Shown: positions 3,332-20,953 of the stretch, one piece after another
Layout: each line of letters starts with the position of its first letter
How positions within the stretch are numbered: position 1 is the stretch's first letter
Assembly (NCBI GenBank): GCA_000002435.2
Contig: CM018792.1
DNA: 64,000 nucleotides
Strand: one strand, 5' to 3'
Source: Giardia intestinalis
Taxonomy: Eukaryota
Position numbers and translations under genes: made by a program
The notes under the pieces: generated by a model
The model's database searches: none
What the model saw: only the letters and a program-made list of their open reading frames with translations
What the model was told of the DNA's origin: nothing

Positions 3332-4099
3332 TATATTTATTTTAAGAAGAGATTTACTCCGTGTTAACAGACGAGCTTGCCACCCGCTGCCCGAGCAGGC
3401 CCGCTGGGGCCTCTCCCCCGCCCTGCGCGGTTGACCCCGAGAGCCTGGAGGCCGCCCGATTCTGGGGAGGGGAGGGGTGTCGCGCCTCCTCGCTCTGAGC
3501 GTCGTGACCTTGCTCTTGCGACACCGTCTGGGCTTCTCCTTTCTCTCACTCAGCCCCCTTGGGGCCAACTTCTGTATGGAGTGGAAAGCAGTGATCTTGG
3601 CCACGTAGCCTAGGGCCTTGGTACTCTATGACGAAGATTGCATACGCCATGAACCTCGGGATGGCCCGAAGCTCACCGGATACTTTCTTGTCATCTCGTG
3701 GAGCGGGTGTCCGTCCCACTATCAAGGGTGTGCTCCCCGTATGCCTCTATCTTGGAGTTAGAGTACGCACTCATGGATGCCGGCGGACAGCTCCCATGCG
3801 TTGGTGCCGAGGAAGAGGTCCAGCCCTGGTTTGCCTTCCCGCTCGACCCGTCCTTCTGCTCATGGACCACAGCGCGCCTCTTGTGCAGTGCTAGGAGACG
3901 CATACCGACAGACATTGCGCCTTGCCACGTCACTGGCCGGATCTTCCTGCTCGCGGTTGGCATGCGGCTCCTCGTCTGTCTGAACAAGGCAGTGGGGGTT
4001 GGAGTGGCAGAACTAGAGCGTGTTTGCCAGAGGCGCTAGTCTGCCGGCTAGAGGCGGAGTCGAGCGATGCCTGCCCAGAGATGCTCGCTCGGCTGCGAG

Positions 4100-5720
4100 G
4101 AGCACTGCAGGGGGTTCCACGAGCGCGGGAAGGCTCCCTCCCCTAGAAGCCCCGAGGGCCCTCGCGTCCCCGAGTTCAGTCTCCAGGGGCTTTGCGGGCA
4201 TATGCGACGATCTGGGCGCAAGAGCCCTGGGTGGTCTCGAACTCCGGACGCACGCTTTCACCAGGGTTTCGCACCCGAGCGTCCTCAGATACCACCGGGT
4301 AATCAGAACGAGCTGCTTTGTCTACACAACCATGGACCGCGGCCACAGAAGTCTAGGACAACTCCTCCTTGAGCACATGCAGGCCGACGAGCCGGTCGCT
4401 GAGGGCCTGGTGTTGTCCATCATGGAGCAGCTTTCTACCGGGCTTACCTACCTCCATGACGTCTGCTGGGAGGACGCCAGCGGAGCGCCCTGCCAGGGAA
4501 TCGTCCACTAGAGCCTCACGCCCGCCGACGCCCTCATTAGACAGGACGAACAGCGCGTCGTGCTCGCAGACTTCGCGTCCACAGAAACGCTCTGCACAGT
4601 GGCAGTGCGGAGGCAGAGGGCCCCGCGTACACGGATCCTGAAGCCCTCAGATGGCGCGGCCTCCGATCTCTGGGCCCTTGGTGCTATCGCATGCGAGCCT
4701 GCCACTTTGAAGGGGCCGAGCTTCCTGGACGGGTAAGACGCAAAGGCCCCTTTGTCGCCGGATGGAAGCCGAATCTGGGCCTTGTTGTGAAGGATCTCGT
4801 GTGGGATGTCCTCGGGAGGGTCTTTGCCTCAGACCCCGAGTGGTGACCAACAGCCACCAAGCTCGCCAGCCTGCTTCTGCGTGCGGGACGTCTGCTGTGG
4901 GCCCGGATCTCCAGGCCGGCGAGTTGGCAAGCACGGGCGAGTCTCTGCGGCCAGTGCCGAGTCTGTCCTTTCGAGGCAGGGCCCGAAGATGCCGCTCAGC
5001 ATATCAGAGGCATTGGCGCATCCATCGGGCCGTTCCACCAAAGGGCGGGAGCAGCACACTGCAGACGGGCACGGGGCTTCCATCGAATCGACCGACCAGG
5101 TTGCAGCGAGCGGCACGAGGTCCCTATCCTTCCGGGTCCCTGCGAAGGACTCCTCGTGGACCCGGCTGATGCGCGCTGCCGTTACTGGAGATCTCAAGAC
5201 GGCACAGAAGCACCTTGGTGAAAAGGACAAGAAGAACGAGGCGGCGACGCGGTGTACACTCCTGCCGTCAAGGCCGGACAGGGGCCGATGCTGGAGCTCC
5301 TTGACCTTACGGATAAGGCCGGGTCACGGCGCTCATGAGGGCTGCGGACAGAGGAGACGCAGAGGCAGTGAGGCTTCTGGTGAAGCACGAGGACGGCATG
5401 AGGGATGACGATGATTGACGGCGCTCATGATAGCAGCACGGTATCGCCATCCGGAATGCGTTAAGCTTGCTAGAGAGGGAAGCATGTATGACAGGCATAA
5501 GAGGCGCGACTGCTCTTGTGCATGCGGCGGCCAACGGCAGTGCCTTGTGCATACCCTTCCTCTTGGAGAAGGAGGCATGTGTGCAGGACGCCAGTGGCTG
5601 GTCTGCTCTCGCGTGGGCAACATATCTAGATAAGCCAGAGTGTGCGAAGCTTCTTATGGGGGAGGAGGACATAGAAATCACCCCCATAGCTGGAGGGTAT
5701 GCCGACGATGGCAACAATGG
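4100..5720 (+). pseudogene. NEK-family protein kinase / ankyrin-repeat pseudogene (left-arm copy), GC-rich
   Basis: Kinase subdomains are readable: HPSVLRYH, LTYLHD..GIVH*SLTPADALIRQDEQRVVLADFAS (an in-frame TAG sits where HRD would be), and SDLWALGAIACE. Ankyrin repeats follow (TRLMRAAVTGDLKTAQKHL, TALMIAARYRHPECVKL, GATALVHAAANGSALCIPFLL, SGWSALAWATYLDKPECAKLL). They are spread over three frames with stops. The coordinates are approximate. Confidence 0.7.
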
Positions 5721-8287
5721 CAAGACCGGTGGCGACTATTGTCGACTATGACGACTATGATTACTCGACTCCTATGACCACGATTATCATGCTCCTGACG
5801 ATCATGACGTTTACGATTGCTACGGTTACTAGTATTCTGATAACTATGATTTTCATAATCCTTTTGAATGCGATTCCTTATGTGGCGCCACAGCTCTTGA
5901 GCTAGAGGATGGATCATCGAGGGATAGTGGAGGTTCTTTCAACGCGACTGCAGGGTACTAACGGGCTTCTCTACAGGCACACCTTTATACAACTGCCAAT
6001 CTGTTTGCAGCAGTAAAGCTGCGTCACCGCAGTGGCCTAGGGGCTGCTCGATCTATAATTCCGCAAGGGGCAGGCTGATAAAGCAAAACTCTGCGGCCTA
6101 ATTTGTGCCCTGTACAGCCAGCAAGCAAATCCTCTGGACCGCCAGCAGAGCTGCTCGTTCAGCGGAGCGCCGTCTCGTAGGGAGAAGCGGGACGTCACTG
6201 TCAGGCCCAAGCGAGAGTGCCGGCGCCATGCGAACAGTCTCCGGTCCCTGGAGGCCGCCCCGGGTCACCGAAGGCAGGGTATCCTATTGCACAGTGCAGG
6301 CGCGTAGCAGCTAACAGAACCGGCGCAAGTGGCGGCCGAGCGGTGGCTTTTGCGCCTCTCCGAAGTGGGGAGACAGTGTCCAGAAGGCGCGAGGTTCCCG
6401 CGATTTGTCTGGAGCCAGCCGGGAGCGTCACAGAAAAAGCATCTTGAGGGCTCCCTAGGTGCAGTGGCAAAGGGACGTCCGCTGCTTCTTCGCCAGCGGC
6501 TTGCCCGGTGGACCACAGGGCCTCCTAGGCCGCCAAGCGCGAACACAGCTGCGATGAGTGGCTACTGTACGCCCTTGTGACACAGAGTGGACGTGCAGGA
6601 TGCCAGCGACGTGCTGAGGAAGGCTTTATTACCCTCCTGCTGTCTGTGCACCTGCTCCTGGTAAGGATGCTGAGCCCATGCTTACAAGCCACGGCCCCTT
6701 TGAGAGTGGCCAAAGCCGGTGCTCGAGCAGAGATAGATGGCTGCCTCGCAGATCTCGAATCGCTGCGCATGCCGGTCCAGAGAGACACCGATCAGCCCGT
6801 CACTAGGGATGAGGATCCAGGCATGAGAATCGCCAGCCTCCCGCGCCTCGGATGGACCCAGGCGATGGTGGTACGGGGCTAAGGGTCCTGCTACATCCGG
6901 GCAGACCAGGCATTGCCTCTGAACATGACATCAGGTCAGGGCCCTGTCGCGGACAGAGGGGCGAGGCTAGAAGCCAGCCGAGGCGGAGCAGCTGCATAGA
7001 CGGGAGCGCAGGTTATTATGGCAGCAGACTTCCACAGACGAGGGAGCCCGCGCTCTACTCCAGGATGAAACAGCGACGCCCCAGAGTGCGGCCCCGAACC
7101 ATGCTGCACCCCTCCTTTTGTGGCGCGGGAAGACTGCATGCACTTCAACCACGATGCATCCGGCCTTGAACACTGTGCGGAAAGACAGGCGGCCAGTGCG
7201 ATTCATGCGACGCAAGGAAGATGCCTCACCTTCTGATGCCCTACAATGCGGGGAACATAGCCCCCTGCGCACGGGCTGTCTGCTTAAGGACGGCAAGCAC
7301 ATGGAACCAGGCATGAACGGAACCGGGTCTTGATAGCGGCACGGCTGTCTTCAAGGGAAGGGTGATCTCTTGTCTCTTTAAGCAAGACGTGCTGGATCGC
7401 ACAAGCTTACGATTGGGTGAGGAAGGCTTCTGCATGCAACTCTCTGGCATGACCTAGCTGCAAACAGGCGGCAGCGAAGAGCGGACAGCGGGCTCCAGTC
7501 GTGCGGAAGGAGGATGCACCTGCCTGAGGCTACACGCAGTCATCAGGCGGGGCGTTCTCTGCAGAGGTTACGTGCTATGCAGGGTCGTGTCAAACCGAAG
7601 GACCACTCTTAGATGAGCCAGACCAAGGTGCCCCCATCCGCGCGAGACAGGCCTGTCAGATATATGGCATGCCTGCGAAAGTGAGCGCCGACAGGCAGGG
7701 GCCCGGGTAGACCTGGCGTCCTGGCCCAGAGAGTGAACGAGGACGGCCCGCGATACTTGTCCAGCCGAAGTATGAACGCTATGATGCCCCGGGTTGGACA
7801 AGCAACTCTTAGCGCCCCCCCTGAGAGGCTGCAGAGGACGGGCTTCTGGATGGAGGGACGACCCCAGCCAGGCAGACGTGATCACAGAAGAAGGGGCGCT
7901 GGAACCCGGAACAGTGGCTGACGACTGCGTGTCTGCGCGATGCAGTGCCCACTACTGTCAGTCGGCACACGGCGGTCGGCAGGACGCAGAGCTGCAGAGT
8001 GCTGGAGGCGCCGAGCGAGGCCAGTCTCGCTCATGGGACAGAGGCTGCCTGAGCCCCGCAGTCCTGCGAGCCTCTGGACGGTGGCAACAAGAGACCTTTC
8101 ATGGTACGCATCTGCCTGGATGGCGGCGTGATCCCAGAGCCGGCATCGTACCACTTCACGAGCATCACGATCGCTGTGTCCCCCACGATGGTCACTCGGG
8201 CAGTAGTCAGGTGCAGGGCATGGCGGCTCTTCCCTGTCCCCCAGCAGGACCTCGTAAGAGTAGAGTAGATTGTATAACGATGGACGC

Positions 8288-8302
8288 GTTTACTATCTAA
8301 GT
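8288..8302 (-). terminator. VSP-type extended polyadenylation signal (ACTTAGATAGTAAAC)
   Basis: The motif starts at the A of the TGA stop. It matches the conserved ACTYAGRTAGTRAAY element found 3' of Giardia VSP genes (established knowledge). Confidence 0.75.
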
Positions 8303-10524
8303 CACGCCTTGCCCCTACATATGAACCACCAGCAGAGGAAGCCCACGAGGCCCCCAACGACGACGATGACTGCGACGGAGATGCCCGCGATGGCCCCCGT
8401 GGAGAGCCCGCTCTTATTCGTGCTTCCGCCAGTATTGTCGCCGGTATTATCATCCGTTTCGAAACATATGAACTTGCCGTTAACAGGTGTCGCGCACTGC
8501 CTGCATCCAGCCAGCCCCTCGGAGCACTTTCTGCACGGCCCATTACTACTACTCTCCTTGTAATATCCAGGAGTACATACCTTGCATGTAGTAGCATCGG
8601 CTTCGCAGGTGTAGCAACTTTCGTGGCATTTCGTGCAGGCACTGCCGACCTTCACATATCCGTCCATGCACCTAGAACAGTCCCTAGTGGTGGTGCACTC
8701 AGCGCACCCAGTGTAGCAAGCCACAAGGCTCTCGCCTGTCAGGCTAAATCCTTCTTCCGGAGTCTTGCAGGTTCCGCCTGTACTCTGCGCACTCAAGCAC
8801 ACTGTCGACCCCGGAAGCTGGCTGGTGGAGTAGCAGCCGCCGTTCATCTTGAAGAAGCCGTCTGCGCAGACATTGCACACGCCACCAGTAATGCTTCCAT
8901 CTTTGCACTTATCTGTGCGACTGGTTTTAACAGCACAGACGCCGTTCTGGGGATACTCGTTGTTTTGACTACAGACAGAGCAGTATTTTGTCCCCTCAAC
9001 AGTCAGACCGCACTCCCTGCACTTGCCTGTGCCTGTGCCCGCCGCGCACTCGGCCCCACATGTGCCAGTGTTTCCTGTGGATCCGTAGGTGAGCGCGCTT
9101 CCAGACTTACAGCTTGTGCAATCATTGGCAGTATTTCCGCTACATGTCTTACAGCTGGAATCGCAAGGGGAGCACGCTTCGCCGTAGAAGCCGTCCTTAC
9201 AGAGACCGCACCCGCCATTTTCACTGCACGCGAGACAGTTGGCGACCTCGCACTTCTTGCAGACCCTCTTGTTGCCCTCTGTGCTACTGTAGTAGCCTAG
9301 AATATATTCGCAGTGGTCTATGCACTGGTTTGTTGGCGTCAGATACTTGTTGGACAGACATTCGGTGCAGATCTCTTTGTTTGTTTGTGCACCACTGCAT
9401 GCCTTACAATCCTGAGTACTGCATGGATTTGAAGGGGAATCATTTGGCACGCATTGTGTTTCTTCTTCGTCAAGTTTAAATCCATCATTGCACGTGCAAG
9501 TATTCTCGGTCTTGGCTTCTGAGTTATCAGGGCAGCTACTAATGCACGACTTCTTTCCGAGTCCAAATACCATATTTTCCTTACACGCTGTGCAGGTAAC
9601 GGAGGTGTCACTTTTGGTGCATGTTTTGCAGTTCTCAAACGTTCCTGCCGTGCACGGCTTGCACGTCTTCGGCTCCTCATCGTCGGCGTAGTGGGTGTTT
9701 CCACTCGTGCACGCTTCCTCAGTCACGCACTCGCCTGCCTGATCCTGTGACTGCGCCTTCTTTAGGTACGGCTTGTCCTCATTGCAAGAGGTGCACTTCG
9801 TAGCCTCGGTCTCACAGGTCTTGCATGTCTCAGCGCACTTGGTGCATTTTTTACTGCCTGTTGCATCGACGAAGAAGCCTGCAGTACTCGTGCACTCATG
9901 TTCCGTCACACACGACGTCACGTCGCCGTCCGTCTTAACAATCCTCGCGGTTTGCTGCGCATCAGGGCCGCACGCAGTACACTTAGCAACTCCACTGGCC
10001 TCTACCGTTAATTGTAATCCGTCACAGGCAGTGCACCCATCCACGCCCGTGTACTTCTTATTGCCAGTAAGCGTCACGCCTATCGAATCTCCGCACGAAA
10101 CAACCGAGTCGTGCGCATTATCAGCGCCCGGCGGTAGAAAGTATCCTTCCGTAGCCTGTGTGCACTTACCACCAGCTGCTCCTCCACACATCACATTGCC
10201 AGGCTCAATAGCTTGTTCGTAACACCCGCCCTTGTACATAAAAGTCTGACCAGCGCACTTTGCACAGGTCTCATCAGATGCAGTATTTCCATCGGCAGCT
10301 GTACATTTATCTGTTACATCATCTTTGCCTACACATTTTCCATTGATAGGAACAAATCCTGTGTTACATTGAGAGCAATACAATTTACCACCGATCAGAA
10401 CGTTGCATGCGTTTGCTGCACAATTGGCGTTATTCGCGCAGTGAGCTTCCCGCGCACGTTCTGCTACTTTTTCTGCCCATGCAATCTGGATGGCTAGGCC
10501 CGCGAATATAAAACTGCCGAACAT
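8302..10524 (-). CDS. vsp: Variant-specific surface protein (VSP), 740 aa, copy 1
   Basis: Signal peptide MFGSFIFAGLAIQIAWA. Cysteine-rich with many CxxC motifs and two GGCY motifs. TM helix plus the invariant C-terminus CRGKA. Identical in protein to the ORF at 13767..15989. Confidence 0.95.
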   Translation of the reverse strand: MFGSFIFAGLAIQIAWAEKVAERAREAHCANNANCAANACNVLIGGKLYCSQCNTGFVPINGKCVGKDDVTDKCTAADGNTASDETCAKCAGQTFMYKGGCYEQAIEPGNVMCGGAAGGKCTQATEGYFLPPGADNAHDSVVSCGDSIGVTLTGNKKYTGVDGCTACDGLQLTVEASGVAKCTACGPDAQQTARIVKTDGDVTSCVTEHECTSTAGFFVDATGSKKCTKCAETCKTCETEATKCTSCNEDKPYLKKAQSQDQAGECVTEEACTSGNTHYADDEEPKTCKPCTAGTFENCKTCTKSDTSVTCTACKENMVFGLGKKSCISSCPDNSEAKTENTCTCNDGFKLDEEETQCVPNDSPSNPCSTQDCKACSGAQTNKEICTECLSNKYLTPTNQCIDHCEYILGYYSSTEGNKRVCKKCEVANCLACSENGGCGLCKDGFYGEACSPCDSSCKTCSGNTANDCTSCKSGSALTYGSTGNTGTCGAECAAGTGTGKCRECGLTVEGTKYCSVCSQNNEYPQNGVCAVKTSRTDKCKDGSITGGVCNVCADGFFKMNGGCYSTSQLPGSTVCLSAQSTGGTCKTPEEGFSLTGESLVACYTGCAECTTTRDCSRCMDGYVKVGSACTKCHESCYTCEADATTCKVCTPGYYKESSSNGPCRKCSEGLAGCRQCATPVNGKFICFETDDNTGDNTGGSTNKSGLSTGAIAGISVAVIVVVGGLVGFLCWWFICRGKA

Positions 10525-10590
10525 TAACCAATCTGGTAGATTGATAGGAACAGAATCGCGATATATTCAGCCAATCCGTGTGACTGACAC

Positions 10591-10607
10591 ATGATGATGA
10601 TGATGAT
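10591..10607. repeat. (CAT/ATG)5 trinucleotide microsatellite about 70 nt upstream of the VSP copy 1 ATG
   Basis: atgatgatgatgatgat, read directly. Mirror of 13684-13700. Confidence 0.9.
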
Positions 10608-11449
10608 TTACTCCACCCACCGGTTGCTTCCAGTGGTGTGCTGCTGGGGCCCTCGCCTGCAGGCGCTGTCCGCAAATCTCGCGAGTAAATTCCCGCTCAA
10701 TTTTTGGCGATGTCCGGAGATGAGGGTTGGTCACGGGCCGTAACGATAATCACAGCGGTTGTAAGGAGGAGCTATCTGCATTCCTCGGCTGTTCCGTGGG
10801 CATGCGCACACAACCGGACCTGAAACGAAGGAGAGCCCGCAAGGACCCGATCCACATCATGAACGCAAGATCGTACCTTCGGGCCCCCAGAGAGCAAGCC
10901 GTGAGTCTCTACTTGGGAGACCACTCCAAAGACGCTTGCCCTCTCGGCAGGACACACACGCTGGCTCTGTGGCCTACCGTGCAAGAGTGCCAACAATCAA
11001 CCGAGCACCTGAGAGAAGCAAATGATAACAGACACAGAGTACTAGGTGACGACAAACTGATCATTCCATCCCATATACCGAACCAGACAGCTGCCATGCT
11101 CATCCACCAGGGTGCAGCATGATCGCGAGCATCGAGCAGGCCGGGACTGGGGTAGCGCTCCCCGCTATCAGGGGCCTGAACGCCTTGGTAGGAAACTGCT
11201 AGAAGACTCAAGCAACACAGCAGAGCAGACCCAGAGCAAGGCGGACCCAGACCCCGAGAAGGCGAGACGCCGGATAGCAAACAGGGTGAACAACGCGCTG
11301 AGTTTCGGGGCAGTTGCCAAGGCCCTCCGCGCCCTTGATGACACGCCCACGATAGACAAGCCGGAGAAGGCCGACCGCCCTCAGCGCGCTACACCTGTGC
11401 GTCCCCCCGAAGGCTACGTTGGCCTTGACTACCCTCCATCGATGAGCTC

Positions 11450-13360
11450 GACGGGCTGGAGTGGCAACCGAAGAAGAAATGAGGAAGGCTCTGTTTGAGA
11501 CTCTCAACAAGAAGGCCTCGGGCCGGTCCAGCTCAAGGCGATGAAGCAGAGCGACAGCTTCGTGAAGTACCTCACGCAGGCATACAACGAGCTGACCACC
11601 CACCCCGAGGCGATGCCAGAGGTGATGGCCATGCTCGAGTTCCGGGCGATCCTCATCCCGAAGGAGTCCGACGGATACCGCCCGATCGCGATAGGCGAGA
11701 CGGTGACAAACATCTTCCACCGCGTCCTGCTGAAGGGCTGATCAGGCATGCCAACTACCTCTTGTGCGAACAGATCGCCTTCATGCAGAACGCATACGCG
11801 GTAGGCGTGAGGAGGGCCCACGAGCTCATCAGCAGGACAGGAGCACGCCGTCTCCCTCGACACAAAGAACGCCCTCAACTCGCTCCCGAGGGCGGAGGTC
11901 GTCAGAGCCCTGAACGAGGCGGGCGTCCCGAAGGTCCTGGTCGACTACATCGGGGACTTCCTCGACCTGAGGCACAGCCGGGACGTGAAGTGCGAGGTCT
12001 GCGGCGTCCCCCAGGGCGACCCGCTCAGCATGCTCCTCTTCTGCATGGCCACCGAGCGCCTCCTGAGACGCCTCAGGGAGAGGGGCATCACCTTCCTTGC
12101 CTATGCGGACGACATCGTGGCGTTCCACGACGAGGCCTACCCAGCAGGCGTGATAACACAGCTGGCCATGGGCCTGACGATCAGGAGCGACAATGCAAGT
12201 CCACCATGGCGGGCGAGGAGGTGACCTTCCCCAACCACCCGGTGTCCCCCACTCCTGCCAGTCTCGCGCCGAAGGCCATCGCAGGTGCCGAGACTGCCCT
12301 GAGGAAGATTGAGAACGCCCCCATAACCACCCACCAGAAGCTCATCCTGATGTCACTCTGCGTGGTCCCGATGGTGAACTACGCCCCCCTGGTCGAGATA
12401 ACATCGGATAAGGCGGACTACAAGGAGCTGACAGATATCGCACAAGGCTTCAGCAAGCTAACCAGCAGAAGCTGCGATCGCCTGGTCGACTTCCTGGCGT
12501 ACCAAAGGAGAAGGGCGGCCCGGGCCTGCTCATGCCGGGGTTCTACCACGACGAGCTGCGGAGAGCATGGGCCTCCCTGGACGTCAACAAGGGGACCAGA
12601 GACCCGGTGGAGCTGCCGGTGGAAGGCCAGGCACTGCAAGGGAAGGGGACCTACTCCAACCGCCTCCTCACGCATACACCAGCTTCCGGACAGAGCGGCG
12701 GCGTGCTGACCGAGGAGGAAAGGGCCCTGAAGCAGAGAGATGGCTCGATCATGGGGCAGACAAGAGGCACCTGCCCGGGCTGCCACACGGCAAGGACCCT
12801 CGACCGCGACATGATCGTCACGTGCCTGTACCTCCGCGTCTCAGGGAAGTTCAACGCAGAGCTGGAGGTCAAGACCCACAGCCACCTCAGCGGCCAGAAC
12901 CAGAAGCCCGACATCTGGTTCGTCGACAAGTGCAAGGCGATAGATGTGGGTGTCATCCAGCCCCGCCAGATGGACGCCTACTACAACGAGAAGGTCAAGA
13001 AGTACAGGGACGGGACGCTCCCGATCATCTACGGGACAGACGGATCCCTCCACCCAAGTCCAAGGGGCACCTCGAGGAGCTCCACGTGGACCTCTGTCCG
13101 GGCTGCCTTCGCCATCGCCCACATGGCTGCAAAGGCGAACGAGCACCCGACGAAGCTGATCAGACGGGCCGGGCCGAAAGCCTGGCCACCCAGAGCGACC
13201 GTCTCCTGTCATCCTACTTCTGACAACCGAATGAGTCCATCCCCGGGACCTGTCGACAACGACCGAGAAGGGGCGCAAGACTGGACACACAACCGAGTTG
13301 AATCCCAACCAGAAGAGAAAGCCCCGCTAGCTGCTGCTGATATACATGGACAGTATTGAG
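11450..13360 (+). mobile_element. Degenerate non-LTR (LINE-like) retrotransposon remnant: RT domain with a frameshift and stop, and a REL-endonuclease domain in another frame
   Basis: Track frame 0 carries the RT motifs. RAILIPKESDGYRPIAIGETVTNIFHRVLL covers the IPK..RPI motif (track ORF 11541..11741, which ends in TGA). AVSLDTKNALNSLPR, GVPQGDPLSMLLF and FLAYADDIVAF follow (track ORF 11985..12224). KKASGP upstream lies in a different frame. Track ORF 12532..13359 is in another frame and carries CPGCHTARTLDRDMIVTC (CCHC) plus KPDIWFVDKCKAIDVGV (PD..D/ExK). That is the C-terminal REL-endo architecture of Genie/GilM/GilT/GilD-type Giardia elements (family assignment from established knowledge, no search). 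Local coordinates are approximate to within a few nt. Confidence 0.8.
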
Positions 13361-13683
13361 AATGACAACAAAGACCAGAGCTTCACTCACCGTGAAGGGA
13401 GAGCAAGGAGAGGCACCCTAGTAGACCAGCAAGCCTGCAGGACGGCTTGATCTCTGAAAGAACCGATGTGCACACCCAGTCTGAGCTCACGCCCACGGAA
13501 CAGCCGAGGAATGCAGATAGCTCCTCCCTTCCACTACTGTGGTCTTTGTATTGATACACGACCAACCCTCGTCTCCGGACTAGTCAGGGACTGAGCAAGA
13601 GCTTACCCGTGAGATCTCTGGACCATACCTGCAGGCGAGGGCCCCAGCAGCACACCACTGGAAGCAACCGGTGGGTGGAGTAA

Positions 13684-13700
13684 ATCATCATCATCATCAT
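13684..13700. repeat. (ATC)5 microsatellite upstream of the VSP copy 2 ATG, running into an ATG at 13699
   Basis: atcatcatcatcatcatg. The ATG at 13699 opens a 22-codon uORF. Its TAA stop (13765-13767) overlaps the VSP ATG (13767) as ggtTAATGttc. Confidence 0.9.
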
Positions 13701-13766
13701 GTGTCAGTCACACGGATTGGCTGAATATATCGCGATTCTGTTCCTATCAATCTACCAGATTGGTTA

Positions 13767-15989
13767 ATGTTCGGCAGTTTTATATTCGCGGGCCTAGCCA
13801 TCCAGATTGCATGGGCAGAAAAAGTAGCAGAACGTGCGCGGGAAGCTCACTGCGCGAATAACGCCAATTGTGCAGCAAACGCATGCAACGTTCTGATCGG
13901 TGGTAAATTGTATTGCTCTCAATGTAACACAGGATTTGTTCCTATCAATGGAAAATGTGTAGGCAAAGATGATGTAACAGATAAATGTACAGCTGCCGAT
14001 GGAAATACTGCATCTGATGAGACCTGTGCAAAGTGCGCTGGTCAGACTTTTATGTACAAGGGCGGGTGTTACGAACAAGCTATTGAGCCTGGCAATGTGA
14101 TGTGTGGAGGAGCAGCTGGTGGTAAGTGCACACAGGCTACGGAAGGATACTTTCTACCGCCGGGCGCTGATAATGCGCACGACTCGGTTGTTTCGTGCGG
14201 AGATTCGATAGGCGTGACGCTTACTGGCAATAAGAAGTACACGGGCGTGGATGGGTGCACTGCCTGTGACGGATTACAATTAACGGTAGAGGCCAGTGGA
14301 GTTGCTAAGTGTACTGCGTGCGGCCCTGATGCGCAGCAAACCGCGAGGATTGTTAAGACGGACGGCGACGTGACGTCGTGTGTGACGGAACATGAGTGCA
14401 CGAGTACTGCAGGCTTCTTCGTCGATGCAACAGGCAGTAAAAAATGCACCAAGTGCGCTGAGACATGCAAGACCTGTGAGACCGAGGCTACGAAGTGCAC
14501 CTCTTGCAATGAGGACAAGCCGTACCTAAAGAAGGCGCAGTCACAGGATCAGGCAGGCGAGTGCGTGACTGAGGAAGCGTGCACGAGTGGAAACACCCAC
14601 TACGCCGACGATGAGGAGCCGAAGACGTGCAAGCCGTGCACGGCAGGAACGTTTGAGAACTGCAAAACATGCACCAAAAGTGACACCTCCGTTACCTGCA
14701 CAGCGTGTAAGGAAAATATGGTATTTGGACTCGGAAAGAAGTCGTGCATTAGTAGCTGCCCTGATAACTCAGAAGCCAAGACCGAGAATACTTGCACGTG
14801 CAATGATGGATTTAAACTTGACGAAGAAGAAACACAATGCGTGCCAAATGATTCCCCTTCAAATCCATGCAGTACTCAGGATTGTAAGGCATGCAGTGGT
14901 GCACAAACAAACAAAGAGATCTGCACCGAATGTCTGTCCAACAAGTATCTGACGCCAACAAACCAGTGCATAGACCACTGCGAATATATTCTAGGCTACT
15001 ACAGTAGCACAGAGGGCAACAAGAGGGTCTGCAAGAAGTGCGAGGTCGCCAACTGTCTCGCGTGCAGTGAAAATGGCGGGTGCGGTCTCTGTAAGGACGG
15101 CTTCTACGGCGAAGCGTGCTCCCCTTGCGATTCCAGCTGTAAGACATGTAGCGGAAATACTGCCAATGATTGCACAAGCTGTAAGTCTGGAAGCGCGCTC
15201 ACCTACGGATCCACAGGAAACACTGGCACATGTGGGGCCGAGTGCGCGGCGGGCACAGGCACAGGCAAGTGCAGGGAGTGCGGTCTGACTGTTGAGGGGA
15301 CAAAATACTGCTCTGTCTGTAGTCAAAACAACGAGTATCCCCAGAACGGCGTCTGTGCTGTTAAAACCAGTCGCACAGATAAGTGCAAAGATGGAAGCAT
15401 TACTGGTGGCGTGTGCAATGTCTGCGCAGACGGCTTCTTCAAGATGAACGGCGGCTGCTACTCCACCAGCCAGCTTCCGGGGTCGACAGTGTGCTTGAGT
15501 GCGCAGAGTACAGGCGGAACCTGCAAGACTCCGGAAGAAGGATTTAGCCTGACAGGCGAGAGCCTTGTGGCTTGCTACACTGGGTGCGCTGAGTGCACCA
15601 CCACTAGGGACTGTTCTAGGTGCATGGACGGATATGTGAAGGTCGGCAGTGCCTGCACGAAATGCCACGAAAGTTGCTACACCTGCGAAGCCGATGCTAC
15701 TACATGCAAGGTATGTACTCCTGGATATTACAAGGAGAGTAGTAGTAATGGGCCGTGCAGAAAGTGCTCCGAGGGGCTGGCTGGATGCAGGCAGTGCGCG
15801 ACACCTGTTAACGGCAAGTTCATATGTTTCGAAACGGATGATAATACCGGCGACAATACTGGCGGAAGCACGAATAAGAGCGGGCTCTCCACGGGGGCCA
15901 TCGCGGGCATCTCCGTCGCAGTCATCGTCGTCGTTGGGGGCCTCGTGGGCTTCCTCTGCTGGTGGTTCATATGTAGGGGCAAGGCGTGA
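13767..15989 (+). CDS. vsp: Variant-specific surface protein (VSP), 740 aa, copy 2 (identical to copy 1)
   Basis: Same translation as 8302..10524. ATG at 13767. Ends ...WWFICRGKA. Confidence 0.95.
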   Translation: MFGSFIFAGLAIQIAWAEKVAERAREAHCANNANCAANACNVLIGGKLYCSQCNTGFVPINGKCVGKDDVTDKCTAADGNTASDETCAKCAGQTFMYKGGCYEQAIEPGNVMCGGAAGGKCTQATEGYFLPPGADNAHDSVVSCGDSIGVTLTGNKKYTGVDGCTACDGLQLTVEASGVAKCTACGPDAQQTARIVKTDGDVTSCVTEHECTSTAGFFVDATGSKKCTKCAETCKTCETEATKCTSCNEDKPYLKKAQSQDQAGECVTEEACTSGNTHYADDEEPKTCKPCTAGTFENCKTCTKSDTSVTCTACKENMVFGLGKKSCISSCPDNSEAKTENTCTCNDGFKLDEEETQCVPNDSPSNPCSTQDCKACSGAQTNKEICTECLSNKYLTPTNQCIDHCEYILGYYSSTEGNKRVCKKCEVANCLACSENGGCGLCKDGFYGEACSPCDSSCKTCSGNTANDCTSCKSGSALTYGSTGNTGTCGAECAAGTGTGKCRECGLTVEGTKYCSVCSQNNEYPQNGVCAVKTSRTDKCKDGSITGGVCNVCADGFFKMNGGCYSTSQLPGSTVCLSAQSTGGTCKTPEEGFSLTGESLVACYTGCAECTTTRDCSRCMDGYVKVGSACTKCHESCYTCEADATTCKVCTPGYYKESSSNGPCRKCSEGLAGCRQCATPVNGKFICFETDDNTGDNTGGSTNKSGLSTGAIAGISVAVIVVVGGLVGFLCWWFICRGKA

Positions 15990-16003
15990 CTTAGATAGTA
16001 AAC
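15989..16003 (+). terminator. VSP-type extended polyadenylation signal (ACTTAGATAGTAAAC)
   Basis: tgACTTAGATAGTAAACgcg, read directly after the copy-2 stop codon. Confidence 0.75.
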
Positions 16004-18570
16004 GCGTCCATCGTTATACAATCTACTCTACTCTTACGAGGTCCTGCTGGGGGACAGGGAAGAGCCGCCATGCCCTGCACCTGACTACTGCCCGAGTGAC
16101 CATCGTGGGGGACACAGCGATCGTGATGCTCGTGAAGTGGTACGATGCCGGCTCTGGGATCACGCCGCCATCCAGGCAGATGCGTACCATGAAAGGTCTC
16201 TTGTTGCCACCGTCCAGAGGCTCGCAGGACTGCGGGGCTCAGGCAGCCTCTGTCCCATGAGCGAGACTGGCCTCGCTCGGCGCCTCCAGCACTCTGCAGC
16301 TCTGCGTCCTGCCGACCGCCGTGTGCCGACTGACAGTAGTGGGCACTGCATCGCGCAGACACGCAGTCGTCAGCCACTGTTCCGGGTTCCAGCGCCCCTT
16401 CTTCTGTGATCACGTCTGCCTGGCTGGGGTCGTCCCTCCATCCAGAAGCCCGTCCTCTGCAGCCTCTCAGGGGGGGCGCTAAGAGTTGCTTGTCCAACCC
16501 GGGGCATCATAGCGTTCATACTTCGGCTGGACAAGTATCGCGGGCCGTCCTCGTTCACTCTCTGGGCCAGGACGCCAGGTCTACCCGGGCCCCTGCCTGT
16601 CGGCGCTCACTTTCGCAGGCATGCCATATATCTGACAGGCCTGTCTCGCGCGGATGGGGGCACCTTGGTCTGGCTCATCTAAGAGTGGTCCTTCGGTTTG
16701 ACACGACCCTGCATAGCACGTAACCTCTGCAGAGAACGCCCCGCCTGATGACTGCGTGTAGCCTCAGGCAGGTGCATCCTCCTTCCGCACGACTGGAGCC
16801 CGCTGTCCGCTCTTCGCTGCCGCCTGTTTGCAGCTAGGTCATGCCAGAGAGTTGCATGCAGAAGCCTTCCTCACCCAATCGTAAGCTTGTGCGATCCAGC
16901 ACGTCTTGCTTAAAGAGACAAGAGATCACCCTTCCCTTGAAGACAGCCGTGCCGCTATCAAGACCCGGTTCCGTTCATGCCTGGTTCCATGTGCTTGCCG
17001 TCCTTAAGCAGACAGCCCGTGCGCAGGGGGCTATGTTCCCCGCATTGTAGGGCATCAGAAGGTGAGGCATCTTCCTTGCGTCGCATGAATCGCACTGGCC
17101 GCCTGTCTTTCCGCACAGTGTTCAAGGCCGGATGCATCGTGGTTGAAGTGCATGCAGTCTTCCCGCGCCACAAAAGGAGGGGTGCAGCATGGTTCGGGGC
17201 CGCACTCTGGGGCGTCGCTGTTTCATCCTGGAGTAGAGCGCGGGCTCCCTCGTCTGTGGAAGTCTGCTGCCATAATAACCTGCGCTCCCGTCTATGCAGC
17301 TGCTCCGCCTCGGCTGGCTTCTAGCCTCGCCCCTCTGTCCGCGACAGGGCCCTGACCTGATGTCATGTTCAGAGGCAATGCCTGGTCTGCCCGGATGTAG
17401 CAGGACCCTTAGCCCCGTACCACCATCGCCTGGGTCCATCCGAGGCGCGGGAGGCTGGCGATTCTCATGCCTGGATCCTCATCCCTAGTGACGGGCTGAT
17501 CGGTGTCTCTCTGGACCGGCATGCGCAGCGATTCGAGATCTGCGAGGCAGCCATCTATCTCTGCTCGAGCACCGGCTTTGGCCACTCTCAAAGGGGCCGT
17601 GGCTTGTAAGCATGGGCTCAGCATCCTTACCAGGAGCAGGTGCACAGACAGCAGGAGGGTAATAAAGCCTTCCTCAGCACGTCGCTGGCATCCTGCACGT
17701 CCACTCTGTGTCACAAGGGCGTACAGTAGCCACTCATCGCAGCTGTGTTCGCGCTTGGCGGCCTAGGAGGCCCTGTGGTCCACCGGGCAAGCCGCTGGCG
17801 AAGAAGCAGCGGACGTCCCTTTGCCACTGCACCTAGGGAGCCCTCAAGATGCTTTTTCTGTGACGCTCCCGGCTGGCTCCAGACAAATCGCGGGAACCTC
17901 GCGCCTTCTGGACACTGTCTCCCCACTTCGGAGAGGCGCAAAAGCCACCGCTCGGCCGCCACTTGCGCCGGTTCTGTTAGCTGCTACGCGCCTGCACTGT
18001 GCAATAGGATACCCTGCCTTCGGTGACCCGGGGCGGCCTCCAGGGACCGGAGACTGTTCGCATGGCGCCGGCACTCTCGCTTGGGCCTGACAGTGACGTC
18101 CCGCTTCTCCCTACGAGACGGCGCTCCGCTGAACGAGCAGCTCTGCTGGCGGTCCAGAGGATTTGCTTGCTGGCTGTACAGGGCACAAATTAGGCCGCAG
18201 AGTTTTGCTTTATCAGCCTGCCCCTTGCGGAATTATAGATCGAGCAGCCCCTAGGCCACTGCGGTGACGCAGCTTTACTGCTGCAAACAGATTGGCAGTT
18301 GTATAAAGGTGTGCCTGTAGAGAAGCCCGTTAGTACCCTGCAGTCGCGTTGAAAGAACCTCCACTATCCCTCGATGATCCATCCTCTAGCTCAAGAGCTG
18401 TGGCGCCACATAAGGAATCGCATTCAAAAGGATTATGAAAATCATAGTTATCAGAATACTAGTAACCGTAGCAATCGTAAACGTCATGATCGTCAGGAGC
18501 ATGATAATCGTGGTCATAGGAGTCGAGTAATCATAGTCGTCATAGTCGACAATAGTCGCCACCGGTCTTG

Positions 18571-20191
18571 CCATTGTTGCCATCGTCGGCATACCCTCCA
18601 GCTATGGGGGTGATTTCTATGTCCTCCTCCCCCATAAGAAGCTTCGCACACTCTGGCTTATCTAGATATGTTGCCCACGCGAGAGCAGACCAGCCACTGG
18701 CGTCCTGCACACATGCCTCCTTCTCCAAGAGGAAGGGTATGCACAAGGCACTGCCGTTGGCCGCCGCATGCACAAGAGCAGTCGCGCCTCTTATGCCTGT
18801 CATACATGCTTCCCTCTCTAGCAAGCTTAACGCATTCCGGATGGCGATACCGTGCTGCTATCATGAGCGCCGTCAATCATCGTCATCCCTCATGCCGTCC
18901 TCGTGCTTCACCAGAAGCCTCACTGCCTCTGCGTCTCCTCTGTCCGCAGCCCTCATGAGCGCCGTGACCCGGCCTTATCCGTAAGGTCAAGGAGCTCCAG
19001 CATCGGCCCCTGTCCGGCCTTGACGGCAGGAGTGTACACCGCGTCGCCGCCTCGTTCTTCTTGTCCTTTTCACCAAGGTGCTTCTGTGCCGTCTTGAGAT
19101 CTCCAGTAACGGCAGCGCGCATCAGCCGGGTCCACGAGGAGTCCTTCGCAGGGACCCGGAAGGATAGGGACCTCGTGCCGCTCGCTGCAACCTGGTCGGT
19201 CGATTCGATGGAAGCCCCGTGCCCGTCTGCAGTGTGCTGCTCCCGCCCTTTGGTGGAACGGCCCGATGGATGCGCCAATGCCTCTGATATGCTGAGCGGC
19301 ATCTTCGGGCCCTGCCTCGAAAGGACAGACTCGGCACTGGCCGCAGAGACTCGCCCGTGCTTGCCAACTCGCCGGCCTGGAGATCCGGGCCCACAGCAGA
19401 CGTCCCGCACGCAGAAGCAGGCTGGCGAGCTTGGTGGCTGTTGGTCACCACTCGGGGTCTGAGGCAAAGACCCTCCCGAGGACATCCCACACGAGATCCT
19501 TCACAACAAGGCCCAGATTCGGCTTCCATCCGGCGACAAAGGGGCCTTTGCGTCTTACCCGTCCAGGAAGCTCGGCCCCTTCAAAGTGGCAGGCTCGCAT
19601 GCGATAGCACCAAGGGCCCAGAGATCGGAGGCCGCGCCATCTGAGGGCTTCAGGATCCGTGTACGCGGGGCCCTCTGCCTCCGCACTGCCACTGTGCAGA
19701 GCGTTTCTGTGGACGCGAAGTCTGCGAGCACGACGCGCTGTTCGTCCTGTCTAATGAGGGCGTCGGCGGGCGTGAGGCTCTAGTGGACGATTCCCTGGCA
19801 GGGCGCTCCGCTGGCGTCCTCCCAGCAGACGTCATGGAGGTAGGTAAGCCCGGTAGAAAGCTGCTCCATGATGGACAACACCAGGCCCTCAGCGACCGGC
19901 TCGTCGGCCTGCATGTGCTCAAGGAGGAGTTGTCCTAGACTTCTGTGGCCGCGGTCCATGGTTGTGTAGACAAAGCAGCTCGTTCTGATTACCCGGTGGT
20001 ATCTGAGGACGCTCGGGTGCGAAACCCTGGTGAAAGCGTGCGTCCGGAGTTCGAGACCACCCAGGGCTCTTGCGCCCAGATCGTCGCATATGCCCGCAAA
20101 GCCCCTGGAGACTGAACTCGGGGACGCGAGGGCCCTCGGGGCTTCTAGGGGAGGGAGCCTTCCCGCGCTCGTGGAACCCCCTGCAGTGCTC
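18571..20191 (-). pseudogene. NEK-family kinase / ankyrin-repeat pseudogene (right-arm copy)
   Basis: Exact mirror image of 4100-5720. The mirrored ORFs (18658..18876, 18540..18824, 19780..20271) have identical translations. Confidence 0.7.
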
Positions 20192-20953
20192 CTCGCAGCC
20201 GAGCGAGCATCTCTGGGCAGGCATCGCTCGACTCCGCCTCTAGCCGGCAGACTAGCGCCTCTGGCAAACACGCTCTAGTTCTGCCACTCCAACCCCCACT
20301 GCCTTGTTCAGACAGACGAGGAGCCGCATGCCAACCGCGAGCAGGAAGATCCGGCCAGTGACGTGGCAAGGCGCAATGTCTGTCGGTATGCGTCTCCTAG
20401 CACTGCACAAGAGGCGCGCTGTGGTCCATGAGCAGAAGGACGGGTCGAGCGGGAAGGCAAACCAGGGCTGGACCTCTTCCTCGGCACCAACGCATGGGAG
20501 CTGTCCGCCGGCATCCATGAGTGCGTACTCTAACTCCAAGATAGAGGCATACGGGGAGCACACCCTTGATAGTGGGACGGACACCCGCTCCACGAGATGA
20601 CAAGAAAGTATCCGGTGAGCTTCGGGCCATCCCGAGGTTCATGGCGTATGCAATCTTCGTCATAGAGTACCAAGGCCCTAGGCTACGTGGCCAAGATCAC
20701 TGCTTTCCACTCCATACAGAAGTTGGCCCCAAGGGGGCTGAGTGAGAGAAAGGAGAAGCCCAGACGGTGTCGCAAGAGCAAGGTCACGACGCTCAGAGCG
20801 AGGAGGCGCGACACCCCTCCCCTCCCCAGAATCGGGCGGCCTCCAGGCTCTCGGGGTCAACCGCGCAGGGCGGGGGAGAGGCCCCAGCGGGCCTGCTCGG
20901 GCAGCGGGTGGCAAGCAAATTCTACAAAGATTTACTTCTAAGAACGTAAAGGA

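What the first reader, a model, noticed from the sequence alone, without database searches (positions are those of the whole stretch)
10664..10805. Graded palindrome: 100% arms, about 75%-identity inner shoulders, unrelated core
Inside the perfect arms the symmetry does not stop abruptly. 10664-10805 and its partner 13490-13627 are still recognisably reverse-complementary, but with substitutions and indels (e.g. gtccggagaTgagggttggtc versus gtccggagaCgagggttggtc, and an exactly shared aaggaggagctatctgcattcctcggctgttccgtgggc block). Only 10806-13489 is unique. A gradient like this is expected if the outer arms are kept identical by intrachromosomal gene conversion while sequence next to the non-homologous centre escapes conversion and decays. 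That favours an old, actively homogenised palindrome over a brand-new duplication.
Basis: seen in the sequence. Interest (0 to 1): 0.6.

Follow-up and report, generated by a model that had tools for sequence, protein, structure and literature searches.

The report
Retroelement end-repeats inside Giardia VSP palindrome
The imperfect "shoulders" are the built-in terminal inverted repeats of a dead retrotransposon lying between two identical, oppositely oriented Giardia surface-antigen genes, a published arrangement, and they are not worn-down palindrome arms.

Summary
The perfect arms are 3375-10663 and 13628-20916 (7,289 bp, 0 mismatches). Inside them, 10664-10805 and 13627-13490 are about 71% reverse-complementary. 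The pattern is a mosaic (58%, 95%, 49%, 100%, then nothing), not a smooth gradient.

The window is Giardia intestinalis WB. The arms carry the published head-to-head VSP pair 50229/d50229 (740 aa, 3,242 bp apart, RT remnant between).

The whole centre, 10607-13684, is one 3.08-kb dead non-LTR retroelement, most likely GilD/Genie 2. It is 86-88% identical to copies in isolate DH, and the copies with both ends in hand have the same imperfect terminal inverted repeats (TIRs) of roughly 170-205 bp. One of these is a solo copy with unrelated flanks. The shoulders are therefore the element's TIRs, and arm identity runs 57 bp into them.

Most left/right shoulder differences are also seen in other copies or in the DH orthologue, so they did not arise by decay at this locus.

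DH has the palindrome with the same outer edges. Its two arms match each other over 419 bp, yet differ from the WB arms there at 12 substitutions plus one 3-bp indel. That is concerted evolution.

The structure is already known, so interest is modest.

The parts
3375..10663 (.). Left perfect arm of the palindrome (7,289 bp).
   Evidence: It has 0 mismatches to the reverse complement of 13628-20916. The outer edge is abrupt and lies 43 bp upstream of the Nop14 ATG.
13628..20916 (.). Right perfect arm of the palindrome.
   Evidence: The outer edge lies 37 bp after the PreP stop codon. Short-read contigs from 20 or more samples end at 20885-20887.
8302..10524 (-). VSP gene, 740 aa, one member of the published pair GL50803_50229/d50229.
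   Evidence: Pfam VSP E=1.1e-136. It has a signal peptide and a CRGKA tail. It matches the Table 2 entry of PMC7000408: chr 4, head-to-head, 740 aa, 3,242 bp apart, psiRT between.
13767..15989 (+). VSP gene, the identical second member of the pair, oriented head-to-head with the first.
   Evidence: tblastn 100% to both copies.
10607..13684 (+). Dead non-LTR retroelement of 3,078 bp (most likely GilD/Genie 2). It comprises the core, both shoulders and the innermost 57 bp of each perfect arm.
   Evidence: It aligns end to end at 86-88% with copies L012, L013 and L014 in G. duodenalis DH. The TIR tip TTTACTCCACCC... occurs at 10607 and 13684 and at both ends of L013 and L014.
10607..10810 (+). 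5' terminal inverted repeat of the element.
   Evidence: Alignments A1 and A2. It is nearly identical to L014_L along its length.
13476..13684 (-). 3' terminal inverted repeat. The stretch 13580-13627 is a divergent 'variant B'.
   Evidence: Variant B shares derived states with L012_L and with the DH orthologous element.
10712..10732 (+). Conserved 21-nt TIR block GTCCGGAGAYGAGGGTTGGTC (partner at 13560-13580).
   Evidence: It is largely conserved in the family copies aligned.
10765..10801 (+). Exactly shared 37-nt TIR block (partner at 13491-13527).
   Evidence: Its core, GAGCT..TGC.TTCCTC.G, is conserved across the family TIRs.
11100..13359 (+). Degenerate reverse transcriptase and C-terminal region, spread over three reading frames with stops.
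   Evidence: Frame maps. Pfam RVT_1 E=3.1e-10 at 11985-12224. The best solved-structure relatives are R2 retrotransposon proteins, E=7e-8. The homologues are Giardia RT-domain proteins.
4206..5673 (+). NEK kinase/ankyrin pseudogene fragments in the left arm (mirror copy at 18618-20085, minus strand).
   Evidence: tblastn with a DH NEK protein. Pfam Ank_2 E=1.6e-10 and a weak Pkinase hit on arm ORFs.
794..3331 (-). Nop14-like gene, the unique left flank.
   Evidence: Pfam Nop14. Exact match to WB XP_001705334.1.
20954..24355 (-). PreP/insulinase-family metalloprotease gene, the unique right flank.
   Evidence: Pfam hits. 100% identical to WB XP_001704875.1.

Best explanation
The window is Giardia intestinalis WB chromosome 4. 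A 17.5-kb module fills the intergenic space between the PreP and Nop14 genes. At its centre lies a 3.08-kb dead R2-like non-LTR retroelement (10607-13684, plus strand; most likely GilD/Genie 2). Like other copies of its family, this element carries imperfect terminal inverted repeats of roughly 170-205 bp.

On each side sits an identical 7.3-kb arm. Each arm contains the outer 57 bp of a TIR, an 82-bp VSP promoter region, a 740-aa VSP gene and NEK/ankyrin pseudogene debris.

Shown here: the arms are kept identical within a genome while diverging between lineages, which is concerted evolution.

Inferred: the agent is intrachromosomal gene conversion between the arms. The tracts run into the TIR and stop at 10663/13628 because the next 48 nt of the two TIRs are only 58% identical. 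The right TIR is an old divergent variant, also present at the DH orthologous locus, so heteroduplex cannot extend further. In WB the outer 57 bp of that old variant were overwritten with the canonical version.

The 21-nt and 37-nt near-identical blocks are segments conserved in the family TIRs. They are not remnants of a decaying arm.
For: Identity of the locus: the flanking proteins are exact matches to WB entries. The pair matches PMC7000408 Table 2: chr 4, head-to-head, 740 aa, 3,242 bp, psiRT.

The centre is one repeat unit: 10607-13684 aligns at 86-88% with three DH copies.

The TIRs are intrinsic to the element: the solo copy L013 lies between NOT2 and EamA genes, has unrelated flanks, and carries a 170-nt TIR at 98% plus 34 nt at 79%.

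It is a retroelement: RVT_1 E=3e-10, frameshifts and stops, and R2 proteins as the best PDB relatives.

The shoulder differences are mostly inherited: at 26 of 41 positions both states occur in other copies, and 14 are private to the right shoulder. By eye, most of those 14 are shared with the DH orthologous TIR.

Concerted evolution: DH has the same outer edges to within 2 bp. The outer 419 bp of the DH PreP-side arm are 100% identical to the DH Nop14-side arm, and 96.4% identical to both WB arms. The WB arms have 0 differences in 7,289 bp, although WB and DH arms differ by about 9% over 5.1 kb.

Literature: GilD copies lie next to VSP genes (PMC2861651). RT remnants lie between head-to-head VSP pairs (PMC7000408; bioRxiv 10.1101/2022.03.07.483299).
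Against: No published GilD or Genie 2 sequence could be fetched, so the family name rests on properties and on memory of Burke et al. 2002 ('all copies contain inverted repeats up to 172 bp').

Both DH arms could be compared over only 419 bp.

Gene conversion is inferred from the pattern. A very recent re-duplication in each lineage would give the same pattern.

Why conversion stops exactly at 10663 is also inferred. The A at 10661 is shared with variant B, so the true exchange point may lie a few bases further out.

Only three other copies and one orthologue were sampled.
Confidence: 0.8

Rival explanations
1. The shoulders are former arm sequence of an old palindrome. They sit next to the non-homologous centre, escape inter-arm conversion and decay in place.
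For: An intermediate-identity zone does lie between the perfect arms and the asymmetric core. Another DH pair, L014, shows arm identity falling 99%, 97%, 95%, then 86% toward the centre, so conversion efficiency may decline inward in this kind of structure.
Against: The zone lies entirely inside a dispersed repeat unit whose solo copy has the same inverted termini. Twenty-six of the 41 left/right differences are shared family polymorphisms. The divergent right TIR is already present in the DH orthologue. The profile is 100/58/95/49/100, not a gradient.
Confidence: 0.08
2. A recent one-off inverted duplication. After a break in the right TIR, the 3' end folded back onto the left TIR and copied 57 bp of TIR plus 7.2 kb of flank. 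The arms are perfect because the event is recent, with no ongoing conversion.
For: There are zero mismatches in 7,289 bp, the inner boundary is abrupt and lies inside a pre-existing short inverted repeat, and the outer edges are abrupt with no homology beyond them. This matches the classical short-inverted-repeat route to large palindromes (established knowledge: Butler et al. 1996; Tanaka et al. 2002).
Against: DH (AII) has arms with the same outer edges on both sides. Those arms are identical to each other yet 3.6-9% different from WB. The palindrome therefore predates the AI/AII split and was homogenised afterwards. The stretch that would have had to anneal is only 58% identical.
Confidence: 0.1
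3. Assembly or polishing artefact. The perfect arms, or the shoulders, come from a collapsed or duplicated repeat in the long-read assembly.
For: Identical VSP pairs were once suspected of being assembly artefacts (bioRxiv 10.1101/2022.03.07.483299). Polishing with multi-mapped reads can erase small differences between repeats.
Against: Independent short-read contigs from 20 or more samples break at the arm edge. The DH assembly shows the same architecture. The pair was reported in both the Sanger-era and the PacBio assemblies (PMC2996952, PMC7000408).
Confidence: 0.02

Closest known systems
Identical inverted VSP gene pairs of Giardia intestinalis WB (Adam et al. 2010, PMC2996952; Xu et al. 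2020, PMC7000408)
   Same: This is one of the listed pairs: chr 4, 50229/d50229, head-to-head, 740 aa, ORFs 3,242 bp apart, psiRT between. The identity boundary lies 139 bp upstream of the ATG, which equals the lower limit of the 139-729 bp range given by Adam et al.
   Different: The papers read here describe an 'abrupt divergence' and 'non-coding' or RT-remnant spacers. They do not say that the perfect identity ends inside the retroelement's own terminal inverted repeat. They do not report imperfect symmetry continuing about 145 bp further, and they do not show that the arms evolve in concert between AI and AII.
GilD (Arkhipova & Morrison 2001) / Genie 2 (Burke et al. 2002) dead non-LTR retrotransposon of Giardia
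   Same: It is a degenerate RT with frameshifts, about 3 kb long, sits in gene-poor DNA next to VSP genes (PMC2861651) and is R2-like. The inverted terminal repeats of about 170 nt match my recollection of the Genie 2 description.
   Different: No reference sequence was available for direct comparison. At this locus the two TIRs belong to two diverged variants, and the outer 57 bp have been homogenised together with the host arms.
Conversion-maintained palindromes with a unique spacer (human/primate Y-chromosome palindromes P1-P8; plastid inverted repeats)
   Same: The arms are identical within a genome but diverged between lineages. The spacer is unique. The spacer may also flip, since the DH contig shows the core in the opposite orientation.
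   Different: This structure is much smaller (7.3-kb arms). The spacer is a transposable element with its own TIRs, which set the inner limit of homogenisation. The cargo is an antigenic-variation gene.

Membership tests
Giardia identical inverted VSP pair | Two identical VSP ORFs (signal peptide, CXXC-rich, CRGKA tail) in inverted orientation. | tested here: met
   Pfam VSP E=1.1e-136. The two 740-aa ORFs are 100% identical and lie head-to-head.
Giardia identical inverted VSP pair | ORFs separated by about 2-4 kb, with flanking identity ending abruptly 139-729 bp from the ORF. | tested here: met
   The ORFs are 3,242 bp apart, and identity ends 139 bp upstream of each ATG. This matches PMC7000408 Table 2 and PMC2996952.
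GilD / Genie 2 non-LTR retrotransposon | Reverse-transcriptase domain of the non-LTR type. | tested here: met
   RVT_1 E=3.1e-10. R2 retrotransposon proteins are the best PDB matches, E=7e-8.
GilD / Genie 2 non-LTR retrotransposon | All copies dead (frameshifts, stops, deletions). | tested here: met
   The coding remains are spread over three frames with in-frame stops. This holds for the window copy only; some DH copies keep ORFs of 587-595 aa.
GilD / Genie 2 non-LTR retrotransposon | Terminal inverted repeats up to about 172 bp (recalled from Burke et al. 2002; the paper is not held in the library). | tested here: met
   The solo copy L013 has a 170-nt TIR at 98%. The copies with both ends in hand share TTTACTCCACCC... 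termini.
GilD / Genie 2 non-LTR retrotransposon | Nucleotide identity to the published consensus. | not testable with these tools
   No GilD or Genie 2 reference sequence was reachable. The PNAS 2001 paper is not held, and a search for Genie found nothing.
GilD / Genie 2 non-LTR retrotransposon | C-terminal restriction-like endonuclease with an upstream Cys motif. | tested here: inconclusive
   A CPGCH motif and a conserved C-terminal ORF are visible, but there is no Pfam or PDB hit for that part.
Conversion-homogenised palindrome (concerted evolution) | Arm-to-arm identity within a genome exceeds orthologous arm identity between lineages that share the palindrome. | tested here: met
   WB arms: 0 differences in 7,289 bp. 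DH arms: 0 differences in 419 bp. WB against DH: 96.4% over those 419 bp and 90.6% over 5.1 kb. The outer edges are the same.
Conversion-homogenised palindrome (concerted evolution) | Spacer inversion by inter-arm recombination. | tested here: inconclusive
   The DH contig places the element's 3' end next to the Nop14-side arm, whereas in WB it faces the PreP-side arm. A short-read assembly cannot phase the core across identical arms.
De novo fold-back palindrome seeded by a short inverted repeat | Recent origin, absent from sister lineages. | tested here: not met
   The palindrome, with the same edges, is present in AII isolate DH and in AII short-read contigs.

The most novel reading that the evidence does not exclude
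GilD/Genie 2 elements may be more than debris next to VSP genes. Their imperfect TIRs could be the seeds and the inner 'stops' of the large VSP palindromes. A TIR pair would first allow inverted duplication of whatever flanks the element. It would then fix where inter-arm conversion ends. The resulting palindromes evolve unusually fast, with AI-AII divergence rising from about 3% at the outer edge to 10-16% near the VSP. They may also flip their core and swap VSP cassettes. That would make a dead retroelement an organiser of antigen-gene duplication and turnover.
Probability: 0.25. Interest if true: 0.55.

Novelty: already known. Interest (0 to 1): 0.3.

Why it matters
The practical value is interpretive. 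The result shows what the 'graded' zone really is, and it warns against reading the age of a palindrome from symmetry that belongs to an embedded transposable element. It also adds three small points to the known picture of Giardia VSP pairs. First, arm identity ends inside the retroelement's TIR. Second, the pair at this locus predates the AI/AII split and evolves in concert. Third, inter-isolate divergence climbs steeply toward the VSP. If these hold for all roughly 20 pairs, they would explain why VSP pairs tend to be separated by a few kilobases. They would also tie a dead retroelement to maintenance of the antigenic-variation repertoire.

Tried and rejected
- Rfam (gathering thresholds) and tRNA scans of the whole window found nothing.
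Individual ORFs were scanned instead.
- Exact-protein look-ups of the WB VSP and of the 275-aa core ORF found no record, so the inner junction could not be checked independently in short-read contigs.
- The PNAS 2001 GilD paper is not held under either id. Searches for Genie 2 found nothing relevant.
- One metagenome scan with the 19-nt TIR block gave 9 contigs. None is related to the element by blastn, so they are chance hits.
- No 'outer shoulders' exist. A gapped comparison of 475 bp outside each arm gave only chance-level scores.
- The 8-mer TTTACTCC also occurs in the left outer flank. I rejected it as a chance match.
- I considered a DNA transposon, because TIRs are present. I rejected it: there is no transposase, the coding remains are RT/R2-like, and the solo copy has no target-site duplication.
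- I considered a VSP promoter element as the explanation for the conserved 21-nt and 37-nt blocks. This is unlikely, because the blocks are equally conserved in the solo copy that is not next to a VSP.

Full report
**What is in the sequence**

The window contains a large palindrome. Its arms, 3375-10663 and 13628-20916, are perfectly reverse-complementary: 7,289 bp with 0 mismatches. The first mismatch is at 10664/13627.

Identity by segment:
- 10664-10711: 58%
- 10712-10732: 95% (the quoted 21-mer with its T/C difference)
- 10733-10764: 49%
- 10765-10801: 100% (37 nt, not 39)
- 10802-10810: 40%

Beyond that there is nothing. Overall, 10664-10805 is 71% identical. The shoulder similarity is far above chance, with a local score of 100 against 16.8 +/- 2.2 in shuffles. 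The two halves of the remaining core are not self-complementary. The observation therefore stands, but the profile is a step followed by a mosaic, not a gradient.

**Where the window comes from**

Each arm carries a 740-aa variant-specific surface protein (VSP) gene: 8302-10524 on the minus strand and 13767-15989 on the plus strand. Pfam VSP scores E=1e-136. The genes lie head-to-head with their ATGs 3,242 bp apart.

The unique flanking genes are exact matches to Giardia intestinalis WB proteins. These are a PreP/insulinase metalloprotease (XP_001704875.1) and a Nop14-like protein (XP_001705334.1).

Table 2 of the WB chromosome-scale genome paper lists this pair: chromosome 4, 50229/d50229, '<- ->', 740 aa, distance 3,242 bp, 'psiRT' between (PMC7000408). 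Adam et al. 2010 had already described 14 identical inverted vsp pairs. Those pairs are separated by 2-4 kb, with flank identity ending abruptly 139-729 bp from the ORF (PMC2996952). Here the identity ends 139 bp upstream of each ATG.

Beyond the VSP, each arm holds about 4.9 kb of GC-rich DNA containing NEK-kinase/ankyrin pseudogene fragments. The whole module (55-61% GC) fills the PreP-Nop14 intergenic space in a background of 44-47% GC.

**What the core and shoulders are**

The core holds a degenerate reverse transcriptase spread over three frames with stops. Pfam RVT_1 scores E=3e-10 at 11985-12224. R2 retrotransposon proteins are the best solved-structure relatives.

A protein search with the repaired translation found Giardia RT-domain proteins. 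Their DH-isolate contigs were fetched. The decisive result came from blastn. Window 10607-13684 comprises the core, both shoulders and the inner 57 bp of each perfect arm. This stretch aligns at 86-88% with L013 and L014 end to end, and with L012 as far as its contig reaches. Homology stops at the same tips, TTTACTCCACCCACCGG..., in L013 and L014.

L013 is a solo copy between housekeeping genes, with unrelated DNA on its two sides. It nevertheless has a 170-nt terminal inverted repeat at 98%, plus a further 34 nt at 79%. The inverted termini are therefore a property of the element, not of this palindrome.

Several features fit the dead GilD/Genie 2 family:
- about 3 kb long
- a dead RT
- RT remnants between head-to-head VSP pairs (PMC7000408; bioRxiv 10.1101/2022.03.07.483299)
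- inverted repeats of about 170 nt

From memory, Burke et al. 2002 described Genie 2 copies as having inverted repeats of up to 172 bp. I could not retrieve that paper or a reference sequence.

**Are the shoulder differences in-place decay?**

The two shoulders differ at 41 aligned positions. At 26 of them, both states are present in other copies of the family. At 14, the right shoulder is private among the DH paralogues. One is private to the left shoulder.

The left shoulder is the canonical version and closely resembles L014_L. The inner part of the right shoulder closely resembles L013_R. The stretch 13580-13627 is a divergent 'variant B' that shares several derived states with L012_L.

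When the element at the orthologous DH locus is added, its TIR carries the same variant B, including by eye most of the 'private' states. So the divergence of the right shoulder predates the AI/AII split. In DH, variant B runs to the TIR tip. In WB, the outer 57 bp have been replaced by the canonical version carried on the other arm. The 21-nt and 37-nt blocks are the segments conserved across the family TIRs.

**Is the palindrome old and homogenised?**

The answer is yes, on comparative evidence.

AII short-read contigs break about 30 nt inside the same outer edge. The DH contig carrying PreP runs 419 bp into the arm. The DH contig carrying Nop14 crosses the whole other arm and runs 2.3 kb into the element. 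The outer edges agree with WB to within 2 bp.

The two DH arm ends are 100% identical to each other over 419 bp. Both differ from the two identical WB arms there by 12 substitutions and one 3-bp indel. Over 5.1 kb, the DH arm is only 90.6% identical to WB, whereas the WB arms differ at none of 7,289 positions.

That is concerted evolution. Intrachromosomal gene conversion is the simplest agent, but this is inferred. I also infer that tracts stop at 10663/13628 because the next 48 nt of the two TIRs are only 58% identical.

In assemblages E (P15) and B (GS), homology to WB ends within about 30 bp after the PreP stop, which is at the arm edge. As far as can be seen, the module is specific to assemblage A.

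**Verdict on the interpretation**

The premise is wrong, because the intermediate zone is the retroelement's TIR pair. The gradient does not exist as described. The conclusion, an old and actively homogenised palindrome, is independently supported. The verdict is therefore 'partly supported'.

**Rival explanations**

- A single recent fold-back duplication primed at the TIRs fits the perfect arms and the boundary inside a short inverted repeat. It does not fit the shared, lineage-specifically homogenised palindrome in DH.
- An assembly artefact is excluded by independent short-read breakpoints, the DH assembly and two generations of WB assemblies.

**Novelty and interest**

The pair, its RT remnant and (from memory) the element's inverted repeats are all published. 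Three details appear to be additions:
- the identity boundary lies 57 bp inside the TIR
- the two TIR variants are ancient
- the arms evolve in concert between AI and AII

These are incremental points. I rate the feature as already known, with interest 0.3.

The most novel reading still open is that GilD TIRs seed VSP palindromes and delimit their conversion. The palindromes would then act as fast-evolving antigen-gene modules that may also flip their core. I put the probability of this at about 0.25.

Noticed in passing
window 3375-8442 compared with L018 4819-9957: The gradient that does exist is between isolates, not between arms. WB-DH identity is 99-100% in Nop14 and about 96-97% at the outer arm edge. 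It falls to about 93-94% around 4200-5200, about 88-93% from 5700 to 8100, and 84% at the VSP 3' end. The VSP body is not homologous. Substitutions are mostly transitions (323 transitions, 79 transversions). The arms therefore evolve many times faster than their flanks, and faster toward the centre.
   Followed up: partly
L018 1-2321 compared with window 11470-13684: In the DH contig the 3' end of the retroelement abuts the Nop14-side arm. In WB it abuts the PreP-side arm. This is an apparent flip of the core, as expected from recombination between inverted arms. A short-read assembly cannot phase across identical arms of 5 kb or more, so the flip may not be real.
   Followed up: partly
L018 2321-4959: At the orthologous DH locus the VSP is a different gene of 747 aa, with only patches of about 72% nucleotide similarity. 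About 290 extra bp lie between the TIR and the promoter. The last ~75 bp of promoter, the signal-peptide start and the last ~140 nt of the VSP are conserved. This suggests cassette replacement anchored in the conserved VSP ends.
   Followed up: partly
L014 1-4773 (DH contig AHGT01000170.1): Another copy of the element sits between the 3' ends of a tail-to-tail VSP pair. There the arms are not perfect. Identity falls 99%, 97%, 95% toward the element and reaches 86% within the TIR. This is a genuinely graded case at a different locus.
   Followed up: partly
window 10656-10663 and 13628-13635: The perfect identity ends exactly at a palindromic octamer, CCTGCAGG. Other family copies have CCTGCGGG. 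The A at 10661 is shared with the divergent variant-B TIR of the DH orthologue (TCTGTAGG), so the true exchange point may lie a few bases further out.
   Followed up: no
window 10591-10605 and 13686-13700: An (ATG)5/(CAT)5 microsatellite sits one base outside the element tip, at the junction with the 82-bp VSP upstream region. DH has unrelated sequence of about 290 bp in this position.
   Followed up: no
window 3332-3604: The mechanical ORF 794-3604 (936 aa, GTG start) runs from Nop14 across the arm edge into the palindrome. Gene callers on short-read contigs recorded this 936-aa product (P0150, 20 contigs). The annotated protein is 845 aa and starts at 3331.
   Followed up: yes
window 5700-8300 and 16000-18600: About 2.6 kb of each arm, at about 61% GC, lies between the NEK/ankyrin pseudogene and the VSP stop. 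It has no ORF longer than about 200 aa and no recognised domain. Its origin was not determined.
   Followed up: no
L009 11171-12026, L010 11434-12340, L011 11700-11961, L020 13403-15010: In assemblage B (GS), assemblage E (P15) and two unnamed, more distant Giardia lineages known only from short-read contigs, the DNA downstream of PreP is unrelated to the WB arm. In all four the contigs end within 0.3-1.6 kb. The PreP-Nop14 interval is therefore a variable, repeat-rich site across Giardia lineages.
   Followed up: partly
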